Of a DNA stretch of 64,000 bases, positions 4,601-44,200 are shown in pieces (within the stretch, counting starts at the first letter, position 1; each line of letters opens with the position of its first letter). The position numbers and the translations under genes were made by a program. This DNA is from Ophelia neglecta. Lineage: Eukaryota. A model generated the notes under the pieces. It was not told where the DNA came from. It did not search any database and worked only from the letters and a program-made list of their open reading frames with translations. Location: positions 27,280,001-27,344,000 of the forward strand of contig OZ260665.1 of the NCBI GenBank assembly GCA_965285935.1, written 5' to 3'.

Positions 4601-6180
4601 GTTGTAATTATTATGCAAGAAATATGTTTGTTTTATATAGGTAGTTGTATTCATTTGGAGTGTTAGAAATGGCTAGTATGTAACCATTTTTAATGTAGAA
4701 CAAACAGATAACAGTTTAGGTCTAAGAGCCTAGGTGTGGGTCTAAATCCCTGGGACTGTTGGCCTGCTCTGGATCTGAAGTAGTGGTGCTATGGGTATGT
4801 TCTTGGATTCTTGACATTTTGAGCTGTGGGGCTAGATTTTGTGGCCAGGGTCCTGTGGCCTGCTGAGGTCTGGTTTCCATGACAGCCTGTCTTACATGAG
4901 ACTGAGGTCCTGCCACTGAAATTTCCTGTGGAGACACTAGTTGAGCGTTGTGACACCATCTGTCAAGGCAGACCAAAGCTCGGAGCTACCAAATTGTATT
5001 ATTTTGTCCATTACATTTCCGCCAGAGCTCATTGATCAACTCGGATCCAAAGCAACTGCAAATGCATTATATTTTCACCAAACCAAATTGGTTTTCTGAA
5101 TTCTTCTATGTTTTCCGAGCTGGCAAAATGGCTTTCCATGCCCAGTACGTGTAAAAAGTACCTTTGAATGGATTTGAGTTTATACCATTGGCTTTGAATC
5201 AGCCGTATCAATCTATTTTAATGGTGTATAGGAACAGGGCTGGATGCAGAAATGTATAAGATATTGTAGGGGCTCTGCGTTAACTGCTGGGTGACAAATC
5301 CCATGCTACACTCAGAACCAACGCTGTTCATCATCTATTATGGAGACTTAGTTAATGTTGTCTCACTGTTAAATAGGCGCCATTTTATCGATGGCTTCCT
5401 ATTCCATGCCAGTGCTATCCCACCTTCTGATTCATCAGATGAGAGCTCATTCATTCATAGTAAATATTGAACCACTCTCGATGCCATCTTTGGTAAAGTA
5501 GGCCATTACCTCAAATCCCTAGAGTCACCTTCTTTATTATACTCCCAACAGGTATGCAACAAGGTGGGTCTTGATTTGTGTTTACAAACTCGTCTGTACG
5601 CCCATCAAGGCTCAAGGCATGAATTATACACATACCAGCATGACCTATCACGTATCTCGTACCGTGGAGGAGCGTGAAACATTGTGCAGTATACATATTT
5701 GTTTTTGTGTCTGGATGAAAAAATAGCATTGGAAGTAAACAATGAATTGGTAGGGCTCTGGCAATAGACTGTTTTAGGGGGTGTTATTTATGGAGAGACT
5801 TGGCCACTCCTGTACCAGCTGCCTGGGGCTAACTGGCCTTGACTTGACTGTATATGGTTCAGTGTTCAGAGTGTTGTTTCCATTCTATTACATGATGAAG
5901 TACAAATTGTTGCTCTATACAACTCTGGATGAGAGAACATGACAGATTGACCAGGAGCCCGAGCACTTGCACTCAGGAGCACGGAGAAATTAAATTGAAC
6001 TTTGCTGATGGGGTCATTGAGAGACCATTTCTCTCAGCCCGATCCTAGTGGGTCTGAGTGAAATGTTACCAGGATTGCTGCCTTGATAATGGCCCCATTG
6101 GCAGGACATAACTCTCTTAGGTTTATCATGCATTTCATTTGGGTAAGCCATTAAATAGAGATATATCAATTGGCTCCAAA

Positions 6181-13997: not shown

Positions 13998-16900
13998 GTA
14001 GGTACTTTATCATCAGTTTATGAATACCTATTAGTGATGTAGGATCATAAATGTTTCTATATGTATAATTCTATCAGTGTTTGAAGTTTATGGTGAGGAA
14101 TTTGTGATGGTTTGTGATGCCCTATGATGAACTTCATCAATACATAGCTGCATTAAGTCCATCCCTTAACATAAGCTGCAGCATCTGGTCCACGCCTGAA
14201 TGGTGAAAGCATATTGTTGTTATAAAAAGCTGTGGCTCATCCATATGTTAATAGATATTTGGAAACAAAGGTGGTAGTGTTTTCCACTTTTCACCACAAA
14301 GGTTGTGAATCTATGTGGGAAGGTTGGCCTAGATTTGACTCAGGCATGCCCGAGAGCCCTGCAGCTCCTTGCTCCTACGTCAGCTATCTTGGAAAGTGTT
14401 CAGAAACGCTATGAGACTGTATTAAATTTCATTAGCTGGCTGATGGGAATCTGACAAGCAGACTACGTAGATCTACGCAAATCTATTTTGACCCAAAAGC
14501 ACACCGCTTCAAGTTGCTCCAAGCTTCTTGTGAGGTTCAGGGTGTGTGTAAATTTATACAGTGTGGCTAGTTTTCAAACTTTAAAGTTGGATTCCCACCA
14601 TCATCATACCTCAACGATGAGCACAGTGATGTGGATTCCTCCAGGAGGAGTTGTTGGACCGAGAATGGTCAGTTTTTGTTAATTTTATTTATAATATTCA
14701 CCACCCTCTAACAGTAGTTGTGCCTATCACTCAGAGAAGTTAGCCTGCCTAAAGCGCACCCGCAGCCATATTGATGATGTTGGCAGTCATGTGACTCTAA
14801 ATATAGCCGAGGAACTACCACATGTGCAAAGCATGGCCTCTAACATGGCACTTAGCTTCCAAATATCTGGTGATTTTACAACAAATATCACATCGTAGCA
14901 TTGCGACATTTCCTCTTAGAATATGGCAGTTATTGGCAGTTTCATCAATAGTTCTCTCTGAAGGCATAACTGATGTGACTATTTTTCCCTTTATCATAAT
15001 CTGTCATGGTGTCCTGATGGTTCTCCCAGGAACTGAAGCTCCTCCGAGGGCCTAGTTCAGGCTCTGATGATGATTTATGTCAGTCTCAAGCATTCTCACC
15101 CTTTCATTTTTGATGAGAATTTATCTTGCTTGTAGACCTGCTAGCCTAATCAATCAACTGAAAATTATCAACTTAGCAGTGCATGTCTGCACGGTTTAAT
15201 AGCAATGTGCGTTAAGTAGCCCTCATGGTGTTACATCAATTTAGGATATGTTAAACTTAATATCTGTCTCAATTGCTTTATGGTCTCATCCATGTGGCTT
15301 TTTATTACAATATTACAAGCTATTTTATGTTATAAAGATTTTGTTATTTCCAAGCGGCATATAAAATAATCAGATATTTTATTTGTAAACATCTTGTATA
15401 TTGAATAACAATGTTCCTCTTGTGCCAGATGTTAGAGAAAATCAATTGATGTATTAACTGTGTGTAGCCGTTCATGCATCAGTGGAAATATCTTCAGCAG
15501 AGATCGATGCTCCAATTATAATTCATTGCATTGTGTATGGGATCTTCCACCATCTGTTTTATACCATTTTGTAACTTCATGTTACTCTTTAATGAATTGT
15601 TTTTATGTAGAAAAATAATATTATACCAATGTTTCCTTATGTAATAAGATAAGTTAAATTTACAAATTATGTGATTTTATGTGAAAATGAAACAGAGTGT
15701 ATAAAAATTTAGGGAAATGTGATATTTGTGTCTTAGTCTATACTTTAGTTCAGAAATGTTTGTGCCAACCAATTCTACAATCAGAGAACATAACAGTATC
15801 TGGGAATATAGTCCACAAGTAGACAGAATATTGGTCCCTGACACTAGATAAACTGTATATTTTTATGCATGTTCACTATAGTACTTCAGTTCCTCATTTA
15901 TTTAATATAAAGACCCTAAATACCGTTAATACACAAGTAAGGCATAGTTAGTCCTATTTCAGTGTGCTATTTAGTGCAAAGCTAAGCAAAACAGTCAGTT
16001 TGTCAGGAATGTGTACCTGAGTGCTAAATTTTGCCATTACTCTGCTAAAGGCGCTATTGATGACCCGCTTGCTTGAATTGAACATCAGCCGGAATCTCAT
16101 CTTTATTCATGTCACATTCAGTTAAGAAGCCAGGTATGCTTAATGCCTAATTCTTAGGGAAATATAGACAGGGTGTGGGTTGAAGATGCAATATTCTCCA
16201 AGCACTGGACTATCCAAGGTCCATCTGACTGGCTTTTTTACCTGCTAATGGACTTAATGTATCAATTTCTAATTTGTGTGTCCATTAGAGAAAGCTAATA
16301 TGGAGTTATGCTGACACATTTTAGAGACATACCTTTGTGTTCCTGTAGAAGGCACCGGGCCTGTATTCATCATGGTATTATTATTAAGCGTTACTGGTGC
16401 AGGGTTTACCATATCTTGGCCAGATTCTTGTGTACTGTCTGCCTTGATGGACATGGTAGCCTAGACCAATAGCTGTGTACAGGCCATATCCCTGCTTTAT
16501 TGTTATCAGGCTCTTCTCTTTGACACTGAGGTAGCCATAGGCCTGGACTCTAATGCCATCTCTTACTTGTGGATTCCACCCAGTTTCCATGGCAACCACA
16601 CTGGCAGTAGGAGCCAGGTTGCCATTCTATGGTGTTTTATTTTGACAGATGTGATGTGGGTTTATCTTTGGGCCTCTTTCACCTCTCCTTCCACGGACTT
16701 CCAGTCTCAGAGGCTGAGAGCACTTCTACAGCCTTCTTTGTCAAGTTTAATGTATGATCTGTGTTATTATCTGAACACCACTCACTCCAGCAAGCTGATT
16801 GTAGAGAGTGATACACTCACTTGGGTAATCAGCCAGAGTCTGGTAAACAACTTACAATCCTGTAATTACTCTCCTACTAGACAAAACAGCAAATATGCAA

Positions 16901-18173: not shown

Positions 18174-18306
18174 TGCTAACAGTTTTCTCTTTCTCTTGCA
18201 GGTATGTATTTTGATTTGCTGAACTTGTTGGTAACTTAATGGGCAGGGATGATAAAGCCATCAAAGAAGGTAGTATGAGCTCAAAGTGGGCTGCATTAAG
18301 GTAAGG
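18174..18306 (+). promoter_or_regulatory. Candidate recursive splice site (ratchet point) with a 99-nt cryptic RS-exon
   Basis: Branch tgctaac + ttttctctttctcttgcag|GTATGT (AG ends 18201); a strong donor AAG|gtaagg follows at 18301. Confidence 0.6.
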
Positions 18307-41200: not shown

Positions 41201-44200
41201 TTAGATGGTCATGTCTGTCTCTATGTAGATCATCTTCCTTCAGTCTCCCCCTCTGTATCATCTCAGCCCTTCTGCTCTCGTCTGCTACATCCAATCTCTC
41301 CCATCTTTTCCCGTGTGTAGGCTCTTTGCAAATTGTTATGCACATCTATTTGACTTGCTTGTAGAGAATATATACGTATATATACGTGCCTTCTGATAAT
41401 GTATGGCATTCTGGCCACATCTAGCGCCACCTGTTTACCACTAGACTTCATTTCTGATACAGTACTTCCCATTTGATTAACTCAGGATAAGAGGTGATGA
41501 TACCCATGATTACAACTGTAAAGAGATAGGGCGAGGGATTGTATCATTTTCGCAATGTCTTAACCGCCCTAAGCTAGAATTTGTTAGATGCAAGTCAGTT
41601 GAGAAAATGCTCTATCTCTCGGCTGAATACCAAGGTGATTATGAGTAGTAAATACAGTGGCATATTTGTACAATTCATTTGCAAGGAGCTTTCACAGTGT
41701 CTTTAGTTTGCCTTCCGTTATATTGCAAAGTGACTCACATATAACTTGCACCACATCGGGGTTGATACAATGATACGTTCTGTGATGTTGGGTTCGTTCT
41801 GTGTCCCGTGTCTCTCCTAGCTAGTACACCTGTCTCTACGTCTGTCTGTGTTTGTGTGGCTTAGGAGCATGGGGAGCATGCTAACCGACACATGGCTACC
41901 ACCGTCTCCTTTACAGCAGAGCAGCAACATAGCGCATGAGCCCGTCTCTCTCCTTCTCATTTGTCTCATGCTACTGTAATCAACCATCATGTAATCAGAT
42001 CAGAAAAATGCTCAAATTCACCTTAACAATTAAATGGTAATCTGTGATAATCTATATTATACTATATCAATTTCAAAATATGAATGCATGTGATCTTTTC
42101 TAAGGATCATATACATGCTGTGTTTCGTTGATCTGCACGTATTTAATGCATGCCCCTTATTTTCCCCTTATTTGCATGCAGGGATTCGGTTTTGTAACAT
42201 TTGCAAATAGCGCCGACGCCGACAGAGCACGTGAGAAATTGAACGGCACAGTGGTTGAGGGACGAAAAATTGAGGTGCATGGTTATTTCCATATGTGGTA
42301 GCACATACACTAAATTGCTAAGTTATATTTATATTGTGCAGTATTAAGAAATGCCTGTGTACTGTTCAAATGTCTTGTCACCTCCATATATATATATATA
42401 TATACATATTTGCATATTCTTCAAAGTTTTCTCCCGACCAATGATATGATTGTCCGATCAATGAAATTCTAAAATCAATGCTTTCACGATGATGATTAGT
42501 GTATGCCTTCCCGATGTTAACTATTTAGAGACTGTGCATTTTGGTTTACATGTTGTACCAAACTTTTATCTGTATCCAGCTGATAAAGGAATGTGGAAGG
42601 TTTTTGTAACCAATCCTAAAATAAGTTTCCAAAACTAAAAGGAGATTGTAGTATTAGAAATTAAATAATCCTTCCATGTCCCCTTATAGCGTTTTGTATC
42701 TTCAGTCTGCAAATGCCCCTTTTGTATATATTAGAATTCAATTTCACCGCCCCTCCCTGCATAATGATTTGATCGTAATATCCAAAAAAAGTTGAGCTGC
42801 ATAATCTCCCTTTGAATGCATTCAACATTATTAAATGTGTATCATCTGCATTGGCATTTCTTGATGCTGAGTTTTTTTTCTACAATTTTTATTGATGTAG
42901 TTTGGCTTAGATTTTTTTGTACATAACATTGTACATAATGTAGTAGGCCTTCATAACAAATAACATTATGTTGAAAGCTCGCAGACACCACCAAATCTGG
43001 TTCTTGTTTCATACCCTGTATAGCGAAAAAGGCCAAACCGCGCTATTACATGACTCGTAAATATATCGGAAAAAGATGAAATAGTACATCTGTAGGTAGG
43101 TGAGACAAATTCTGCCAAATGTGAATAACCCAGAGACATCTCGCCACATTTTCCCAAGAGTGCTGTGTCTCATTCAACAGCAATTCAAATAGGCTGTTGC
43201 CAGATAAATTGGCCAATGCCAGACTAGTAGGAATCTTGCTATTTGAAATATGATTGTAATAACTAGCATGTGGTGCAGTACTGAAGAAAATTAAAGGTGC
43301 TGGACCACTAGATCAGGATCATATGTTATGTCTAAAGTCATAAGTTGACTGTTTAGTGCTTGTGAAAGACCACAAAATATGTATGGTTCCTAATAGGATA
43401 AAACATGATCAAAACATTACTACAATTAATACACAAGTTGTTACTGAGCAGAAGGCTATTGGTAATGTTGTGTGGACATGACACATCTGCCCCTTTGTGT
43501 GGACTACTCAATACATCACTGTGTAATTGGAAAAAAAGGTGTTGTCACCTTCAAAGACTTTAGATATGACAAGCTGACGTAAATCAAAACTGAAAATAAG
43601 AGATTAAATGACACACTGTATCAGTGTTTTGTTGTGTGTCAGACACTGCCCCTGTCAACTTCTTGAAAATGATTTCTGAAAGCCTTAGTTAAACATAGAA
43701 CTGCTCCATGGAAGCACTAGACTACAGATACAAAGGTACATGTTCATATACATGTAGTTTTGGACCAGGGCAGCACTATTTGAATTGCTGACTGTGCTTT
43801 TGGATTCATTATAGCTTTAGTACGTAGTAGACTTACCAGAATAATCAGTTGTTCAATCCTTTGACAAAAATTAAGCATAAATCAGAAGGTGTCTGGCTTT
43901 CCATTGTGTTTCAAAGTTTCAAAATTGATGGTAGTTTATTGTTCATGTGTAACTTTTGATGGCAAACATTTTGGATCAGTGCTGATCAGTGCAAATAAGA
44001 AGTCATCAAGTTTTAGTTTCAAAATTGTGGGTTAAGACGGGTATTATTTCTTCACATGAATATTGCTTTAATCAGACAAGATTTGTCTCAAAGTGCTGCC
44101 AGTGATCTGAAGTGTTTGTCCATACTACTATATGCTAAAGAAGATGGTGAACCTATTGTTGAGATATTGAACTTCATTCTTTATCATTTTGTCCACTTAG

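What the first reader, a model, noticed from the sequence alone, without database searches (positions are those of the whole stretch)
18174..18306. Textbook recursive-splicing ratchet point with a stop-laden RS-exon
A consensus branch point (TGCTAAC), a long pyrimidine tract and CAG are followed immediately by GTATGT, so splicing here regenerates a 5' splice site. A strong competing donor (AAG|GTAAGG) lies 99 nt downstream, and the enclosed exon has several stops in phase 0. This RS-site plus cryptic-exon design is established for long introns in Drosophila and vertebrate neuronal genes. It could let transcripts from far-upstream Rbfox promoters either ratchet through or include a poison exon. 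I know of no description of this in a lophotrochozoan Rbfox gene.
Basis: partly seen in the sequence, partly recalled or inferred. Interest (0 to 1): 0.7.

Follow-up and report, generated by a model that had tools for sequence, protein, structure and literature searches.

The report
Recursive-splicing ladder in annelid Rbfox intron
A fused intron-end/intron-start signal followed by a short stop-filled exon is the last of three such signals in an inferred 155,000-base intron of the splicing-regulator gene Rbfox in a probable annelid worm, so the intron is likely cut out in steps, as is known for the same gene in fruit flies, although no RNA data were available to show it.

Summary
The motif is exactly as described. 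It lies on the sense strand of Rbfox in a probable annelid and is the last of three strict acceptor|GTATGT sites in an inferred 155-kb 5' intron, with none antisense. Elsewhere in the genome, 36 of 66 like sites have a donor about 25-105 nt downstream against 5 of 46 controls, and co-oriented ladders occur in two other loci: the fly ratchet-point layout. Fly Rbfox1 has four RNA-supported ratchet points in its long 5' intron. No RNA or related genome was available, so use of the site is unproven, and two donor-strength measures disagree on skipping versus inclusion. No lophotrochozoan report turned up, but this scan already noted such sites in other probable annelids. Verdict: likely new member of a known kind; interest 0.5.

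The parts
18174..18180 (+). Branch-point consensus TGCTAAC (predicted branch A at 18179, -23)
   Evidence: Sequence; fly ratchet branch points lie at -36 to -21
18183..18201 (+). 15-nt pyrimidine tract and CAG acceptor
   Evidence: Sequence; the only sense acceptor in the 155-kb intron that has a strong tract, a CTAAC and a following GT together
18202..18207 (+). GTATGT: donor half regenerated after splicing to the acceptor (ratchet point 3 of 3; G000:C8:27298202)
   Evidence: Sequence; GTATGT is also the donor of 3 of the 12 Rbfox exon ends I could place
18202..18300 (+). 99-nt cryptic RS-exon, stops in all three frames, four ATGs
   Evidence: no homolog N-terminus aligns here among the top 40 tblastn rows
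18298..18306 (+). Competing RS-exon donor AAG|GTAAGG
   Evidence: score 7.1 on an approximate matrix
14617..14667 (+). Coding part of conserved alternative N-terminal exon 1b (17 codons, phase 0, weak donor), 3.5 kb upstream of the ratchet point
   Evidence: 70% identity to the N-terminus of P0010, E 2.7e-6; best of 411 sense candidates, score 75 against 38 for the next and 39 for the best antisense
31995..32201 (+). Common Rbfox exon 2 (phase 0-0; Met at its second codon), 13.8 kb downstream: the acceptor that ends the intron
   Evidence: relatives join many different N-termini to this exon's first residue
1..31994 (+). Window part of the inferred 155,195-nt intron from distal coding exon 1a (G000:C8:27156587-27156799); ratchet points 1 and 2 lie upstream of the window at G000:C8:27217648 and 27249438
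   Evidence: CpG depletion and T>A skew from about -123.5 kb to +58 kb; exon 1a aligns to a chiton Rbfox N-terminus, E 0.002; sites

Best explanation
The site is likely a working Drosophila-type ratchet point, the last of three that would let the inferred 155-kb 5' intron of Rbfox be removed in steps of about 61, 32, 49 and 14 kb. Inferred mechanism: the acceptor at 18201 and the donor at 18300 define the 99-nt exon; the upstream exon (1a directly or via ratchets 1 and 2, or the near exon 1b) is spliced to 18202; the junction regenerates a donor (GAG|GTATGT after 1a, ATG|GTATGT after 1b); that donor is then spliced to exon 2, so the 99-nt exon normally leaves no trace. If the downstream donor wins, the exon is kept and stops the reading frame after 77 codons (1a) or 23 codons (1b). 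Shown: the sequence layout, gene context and genome-wide statistics. Inferred: every splicing step.
For: Three strict sites sense, none antisense, in the intron; flanks unrelated apart from a 21-nt core shared by two; each has a downstream donor (79 or 91, 182 and 99 nt). Genome-wide, after removing repeat copies: donor about 25-105 nt downstream in 36 of 66 test sites vs 5 of 46 controls (P 1.4e-6), 24 donors at 30-60 nt vs 3.7 expected, T>A skew in motif orientation 51 of 66 vs 21 of 46, YTAAY upstream 19 of 66 vs 3 of 46; no frame preference of cryptic exon length, 14/16/14; 9 same-strand pairs within 200 kb vs 2 opposite, 0.67 expected each. Out of sample: around two pairs, four further co-oriented sites with donors at 37-101 nt and one opposite-strand site in 400 kb, co-oriented with kinase and receptor-like exons. 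Fly ortholog: four high-confidence ratchet points with junction reads in a 61.5-kb 5' intron, the last also CAG|GTATGT.
Against: No splicing data at all for this site. On an approximate matrix (frequencies recalled, not trained on this genome) the RS-exon donor (7.1) outscores the regenerated donor (6.0 after 1a, 4.3 after 1b), the reverse of the usual fly pattern, though a plain count of matches to the U1 consensus favours the regenerated donor (9 and 8 vs 7 of 11). The exon is at the long end of this genome's cryptic exons (median 51.5 nt; 36 of 42 are 99 nt or shorter). The 61- and 49-kb segments are near the top of the fly range (2.6-63.6 kb) and the intron is longer than the longest in that list (132.7 kb). 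Raw counts are not clearly enriched against one control: 76 hits vs 63 for GTGWAT before its repeat copies are removed. With the strict YTRAC pattern branch points were not enriched (13 of 71 vs 7 of 49). Only about half of the genome-wide test sites show the cryptic donor.
Confidence: 0.72

Rival explanations
1. An expressed, regulated RS-exon: the site is recursive, but the 99-nt exon is kept in a sizeable share of transcripts, mainly those from exon 1b, whose end regenerates a weaker donor. Inclusion would lower Rbfox output by decay or shift translation to the Met at the second codon of exon 2.
For: Donor scores 4.3 (after 1b) and 6.0 (after 1a) against 7.1; first in-frame stop 78 nt before the next junction; donor competition as a switch with stop-bearing RS-exons is described for human brain genes (passage of PMC5126111); expressed RS-exons exist in flies.
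Against: Donor scores predict inclusion poorly in fly reporters, and hth is skipped despite a weaker ratchet donor. No GCAYG within about 590 nt of the exon, so no sign of Rbfox feedback here, unlike the four TGCATG around the RRM exon. Four ATGs in the exon would hinder re-initiation (inference).
Confidence: 0.15
2. An ordinary cassette or 5'UTR exon that happens to begin with GTATGT and is skipped or included by direct splicing, without re-splicing.
For: Strong acceptor and donor alone define an exon; several relatives' proteins start at the Met of exon 2, so non-coding upstream exons may exist; an ATG at 18239 is open to the donor.
Against: Both upstream exons found are coding and phase 0, and relatives join them straight to exon 2; the 18239 frame ends in phase 2 and is out of frame with exon 2; it does not explain two more such sites in the intron or the genome-wide pattern.
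Confidence: 0.06
3. A chance or dead motif in a T-rich sense-strand intron, not used by the spliceosome.
For: Strong acceptors are twice as common sense as antisense in this intron anyway (55 vs 25); about half of the genome-wide test sites lack a near donor; three copies of one repeat carry the motif.
Against: Flanks are unique; branch point, tract, regenerated donor and second donor coincide; expected 0.008-0.013 strict sites per 155 kb against 3 seen (the Markov estimate rests on 1 hit in 12 Mb and underrates pyrimidine runs).
Confidence: 0.07

Closest known systems
Drosophila Rbfox1/A2bp1 (CG32062, FBgn0052062) ratchet points: four high-confidence sites in intron 3L:10499663-10561227 (PMC6110457 supplementary files 5 and 9, rows seen; gene identity from passages of PMC4803788 and PMC5964235)
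   Same: Orthologous gene; several sites in one long 5' intron upstream of about 26 kb of remaining gene; pyrimidine tract plus CAG|GT; last site CAG|GTATGT; an alternative upstream donor shortly before one ratchet point (1.3 kb in fly, 3.5 kb here).
   Different: Fly sites have junction reads, these have none; intron 61.5 kb vs 155 kb; four sites vs three. That the two introns sit at a homologous position was not verified (searches gave nothing). The near-equal last segments (13.9 vs 13.8 kb) are best taken as coincidence.
Drosophila intronic ratchet points with cryptic RS-exons (Ubx, kuz, Bx, luna; PMC8605326 sections 4 and 8; bioRxiv 10.1101/006163 first half)
   Same: Tandem acceptor-donor in long introns, branch point at -21 to -36, short non-coding cryptic exon with a downstream donor (about 50 nt in fly; median 51.5 nt in this genome), several per intron.
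   Different: This exon is 99 nt; its donor may be as strong as or stronger than the regenerated one; conservation and function untested.
Vertebrate RS-exons in long neuronal genes (Sibley 2015, seen only as cited in passages of PMC6224609 and PMC5126111)
   Same: [quoted passage not shown]
   Different: Vertebrates have few cryptic sites and little sense-strand enrichment in long introns (PMC2773006 Table 2); this genome looks fly-like, with ladders of sites.
Computational RP-site enrichment in large introns of sea urchin, mosquito, bee and beetle (PMC2773006, passages)
   Same: DNA-only inference from sense versus antisense counts.
   Different: No lophotrochozoan in that table; it did not test for cryptic downstream donors.

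Membership tests
Drosophila-type intronic ratchet point with cryptic RS-exon | Acceptor directly followed by a donor-like GT sequence | tested here: met
   CAG|GTATGT at 18201|18202
Drosophila-type intronic ratchet point with cryptic RS-exon | Branch point and strong pyrimidine tract | tested here: met
   TGCTAAC with A at -23; 15-nt tract; fly range -36 to -21
Drosophila-type intronic ratchet point with cryptic RS-exon | Sense strand of a long intron | tested here: met
   Between exon 1a or 1b and exon 2 of Rbfox: 155 kb or 17.3 kb, ends placed by homology and composition, not by RNA
Drosophila-type intronic ratchet point with cryptic RS-exon | Short non-coding cryptic exon closed by a downstream donor | tested here: met
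   99 nt, stops in all frames, AAG|GTAAGG; long end of this genome's range
Drosophila-type intronic ratchet point with cryptic RS-exon | Regenerated donor generally stronger than the RS-exon donor | tested here: inconclusive
   Approximate matrix 6.0 or 4.3 vs 7.1; U1-consensus matches 9 or 8 vs 7; fly exceptions exist
Drosophila-type intronic ratchet point with cryptic RS-exon | Exon-to-ratchet junction reads, saw-tooth coverage, lariats from the regenerated donor | not testable with these tools
   Needs total or nascent RNA-seq of this species
Drosophila-type intronic ratchet point with cryptic RS-exon | Core motif conserved across related species, exon body not | not testable with these tools
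   No related genome held
Drosophila-type intronic ratchet point with cryptic RS-exon | Loss of the ratchet donor converts skipping to inclusion | not testable with these tools
   Needs a minigene or genome edit
Poison exon | In-frame premature stop well upstream of a later junction | tested here: met
   First phase-0 stop at exon codon 7, 78 nt before the exon end; upstream exons in phase 0
Poison exon | Regulated inclusion and decay-sensitive isoform | not testable with these tools
   Needs RNA; no Rbfox motif within about 590 nt
Ordinary constitutive 5'UTR exon | Upstream exons are non-coding | tested here: not met
   Both upstream exons found encode N-termini matching relatives; further non-coding first exons are not excluded

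The most novel reading that the evidence does not exclude
Stepwise removal of the Rbfox 5' intron is an ancestral protostome trait kept in flies and annelids, and the last ratchet point doubles as a first-exon sensor: transcripts from distal exon 1a ratchet through, while those from near exon 1b regenerate a weaker donor and more often keep the 99-nt stop exon, tying promoter choice to Rbfox dose or N-terminus.
Probability: 0.18. Interest if true: 0.72.

Novelty: new member of a known kind. Interest (0 to 1): 0.5.

Why it matters
If used, it extends fly-type recursive splicing with cryptic exons to the third great branch of bilaterians, for which my searches found no report, and it does so in a gene whose fly ortholog is already shown to be spliced this way. 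That makes it testable whether recursive splicing is tied to particular genes over long evolutionary time or arises wherever introns grow. The lists of sites give direct targets: one total-RNA library from this animal would test dozens. Because two coding first exons feed the same ratchet point with different regenerated donors, the locus is also a natural test of donor competition in a dosage-sensitive splicing regulator.

Tried and rejected
RNA evidence: no RNA holder listed; the three runs found are one sample and one study and cover the intron evenly, so they behave as DNA and their joints fall at G/C runs; neither counts for or against expression. One search shows a haplotype bubble with 3 differing letters inside the exon body (two runs), but their positions were not seen and one sample cannot measure constraint, so I did not use it. 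Protein searches: the exon-2 query found nothing; the blanks are void because the query was one base off frame; the in-frame repeat worked. Pfam Fox-1_C did not match the genome (its control rang nowhere). Repeat origin of the three Rbfox sites: rejected. The exon as a coding N-terminus from the ATG at 18239: rejected, out of frame with exon 2 and no homolog match. Weaker sites at 5552, 12670, 24170, -64939 and -69027: not counted (weak tract or weak donors). A mistyped strand first inflated the same-strand pairs to 10; corrected to 9 same and 2 opposite, of which one pair is a duplication and one is this locus. CpG level did not separate test from control sites. A search for further upstream coding exons found only 1a and 1b. 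Attempts to place the fly intron relative to the fly protein failed. The broad paper search returned only taxon papers with no mention of recursive splicing among the 25 listed.

Full report
Observation. Every element is at the stated place: TGCTAAC 18174-18180, an unmentioned AG at 18181-18182, a 15-nt pyrimidine tract, CAG|GTATGT at 18201|18202 and AAG|GTAAGG 99 nt later. The enclosed exon has 5 stops in phase 0 and 1 and 3 in the other frames. The stretch is single-copy in the genome (window = G000:C8:27280001-27344000).

Host gene. Rbfox exons lie on the + strand from 31995 to about 52716. An in-frame exon query returned 303 proteins at E 0.01 or better, of which 120 were listed; apart from one repetitive insect fragment the best named hits are the annelid Paralvinella (84%) and the nemertean Lineus (77%), so the animal is probably an annelid. 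In 200 kb fetched upstream, CpG depletion and T>A skew run from about -123.5 kb to +58 kb in window coordinates. At the upstream edge is a 71-codon exon (1a) ending in phase 0 that aligns to a chiton Rbfox N-terminus (E 0.002). A motif marking the start of exon 2 was found in 82 of the 120 listed relatives, and they attach many different N-termini at that point. One of these maps inside the window at 14617-14667 (exon 1b; 70% identity, E 2.7e-6; best of 411 sense candidates, score 75 against 38). So the site lies in an inferred 155,195-nt intron (1a to exon 2) and in a 17,327-nt intron (1b to exon 2), 3.5 kb after 1b and 13.8 kb before exon 2. Whether 1b is a first exon or a cassette is open; a chiton isoform carries both kinds of N-terminal piece in series (P0077).

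A ladder, not a single site. In the 155-kb intron, strong acceptors number 55 sense and 25 antisense; those followed by a donor-like hexamer number 3 and 0: at -62352, -30562 and 18202, all CAG|GTATGT. A relaxed rule gives 5 and 0. Their flanks are unrelated apart from a 21-nt core shared by the last two, and each has a downstream donor (79 or 91, 182 and 99 nt). The genome-wide rate of the tight pattern predicts 0.008 sites per 155 kb and a Markov model 0.013 (1 hit in 12 Mb). The motif was defined after seeing the finding, so the independent tests below carry more weight.

Genome-wide test. Ten pyrimidines, N, CAG, then GTAAGT or GTATGT: 76 hits. Controls with the same acceptor: GTAWTG 29, GTGWAT 63 (15 on one small contig and 16 further repeat copies, 32 left), GTTWWG 61 for four hexamers. 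Raw counts alone are therefore only moderate evidence. I fetched 10 kb around 71 test sites (76 less the two Rbfox sites and three tandem copies) and 49 controls (24 of 29 GTAWTG and the first 25 of 32 GTGWAT; no GTTWWG). Before de-duplication: donors 30-60 nt downstream 25 observed vs 3.9 expected, 60-100 nt 14 vs 5.2, none enriched beyond; controls showed only a mild excess at 100-150 nt, as ordinary exons would. After removing sites with shared flanks (66 test, 46 control): donor about 25-105 nt downstream in 36 vs 5 (P 1.4e-6), T>A skew in motif orientation 51 vs 21 (P 0.001), YTAAY upstream 19 vs 3 (P 0.004), median first donor at 51.5 nt, with no frame preference. A stricter branch pattern and CpG level did not separate the sets. 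Test sites form 9 same-strand and 2 opposite-strand pairs within 200 kb against 0.67 expected each; same-strand control pairs are almost all identical repeat copies. As an out-of-sample check I fetched 200 kb around each of two pairs: a relaxed scan gave five co-oriented sites on C5 spaced 17-29 kb apart with donors at 101, 39, 39, 37 and 40 nt, three on C12 with donors at 44, 35 and 37 nt, and one opposite-strand site. Of 139 candidate exons scanned, six kinase exons lie downstream on the strand of the C5 ladder and a weak receptor-domain match (E 0.0016) upstream on the strand of the C12 ladder; one weak DUF match was the only other hit. This is the layout described for fly ratchet points with cryptic exons of about 50 nt (PMC8605326, section 4).

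Mechanism. Shown: layout, context, statistics. Inferred from the fly and vertebrate model: exon definition across 18202-18300, splicing of the upstream exon to 18202, regeneration of a donor, and a second step to exon 2 that removes the 99-nt exon. The regenerated donor depends on the upstream exon end. On an approximate matrix (frequencies recalled) it scores 6.0 after 1a and 4.3 after 1b, against 7.1 for the RS-exon donor; by matches to the U1 consensus the order reverses (9, 8 and 7 of 11). GTATGT is a normal donor here (3 of 12 Rbfox exon ends placed), and scores predict inclusion poorly in fly reporters, so I favour default skipping but cannot exclude regulated inclusion. Inclusion would stop translation after 77 (1a) or 23 (1b) codons. 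No GCAYG lies within about 590 nt of the exon, so there is no sign of Rbfox feedback on it.

Comparison with what is known. In supplementary file 5 of PMC6110457, gene FBgn0052062 has four high-confidence recursive sites with junction reads, all flagged as also in Duff et al., in a 61.5-kb intron, the last reading CAG|GTATGT, plus one low-confidence site. FBgn0052062 is CG32062, the fly Rbfox ortholog. File 9 puts the gene end 25.9 kb after that intron, so it is a 5' intron, as here. I could not verify that the two introns occupy a homologous position. Sense-strand enrichment of such sites was computed for sea urchin and four insects but no lophotrochozoan (PMC2773006, passages). Searches for recursive splicing with mollusc (2 papers listed, unrelated by title), annelid (1, unrelated), lophotrochozoa (0) and for 'ratchet point' (12 papers, none on these animals by title) found no report; subscription journals are not covered. 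This scan has already noted similar sites in other probable annelid genomes (e1-7908513, e1-8147882) but none in Rbfox; these are unchecked notes, read after my own genome-wide test.

Papers seen. PMC8605326: outline, sections 4 and 8. 10.1101/006163: first of two parts, supplements not seen. PMC6110457: supplement rows only. PMC2773006, PMC6224609, PMC5126111, PMC5964235, PMC4803788, PMC2586367, PMC5778076: passages. PMC8742874: one passage and section 6. Sibley 2015, Joseph 2018 and Burnette 2005: only as cited.

Verdict. It works like, and meets every DNA-testable feature of, a fly-type ratchet point, except that donor ranking is inconclusive. New member of a known kind; interest 0.5. The bolder reading, an ancestral recursively spliced Rbfox intron whose last site senses first-exon choice, gets 0.18.

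Noticed in passing
window 14617-14667 (+): Conserved alternative N-terminal coding exon of Rbfox with a weak donor (GTCAGT); a TATA-like word lies near 14221; first exon or cassette is unresolved.
   Followed up: partly
window 42085-42281 (+): Four TGCATG motifs flank the 93-nt RRM exon (42182-42274), one inside its acceptor tract; this recalls the autoregulated Rbfox exon of vertebrates (recalled, not looked up).
   Followed up: no
window 33308-33355 (+): 48-nt in-frame mini-exon candidate (phase 0-0, donor GTAAGT) between exons 2 and 3; relatives have variable inserts at this place.
   Followed up: no
window 45314 (+): A coding Rbfox exon begins with GTAAAT, so splicing to the preceding exon end would regenerate GAG|GTAAAT, a possible annotated-type RS-exon.
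   Followed up: no
G000:C5:87523607-87609664 (-), loci L172-L180: Ladder of five co-oriented ratchet-like sites, four with cryptic donors at 37-40 nt, upstream of a protein kinase gene; a cleaner test case than the Rbfox site.
   Followed up: partly
L164:7659-9304 (-): Three tandem copies of one kinase-domain exon (Pfam Pkinase positions about 97-138), suggesting mutually exclusive exons.
   Followed up: no
G000:C12:65058770-65128792 (+): Three co-oriented ratchet-like sites with donors at 35-44 nt downstream of a weak ANF_receptor match.
   Followed up: partly
L043, L044, L092: Three copies of one repeated element carry the acceptor|GTAAGT motif, two with a donor 145 nt downstream.
   Followed up: no
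window 5552, 12670, 24170 (+): Weaker acceptor|GT sites in the same intron, with C-rich or broken tracts; not counted.
   Followed up: partly
window 18229-18280: Haplotype bubble with three differing letters inside the cryptic exon body in two of three DNA-like runs of one sample.
   Followed up: no
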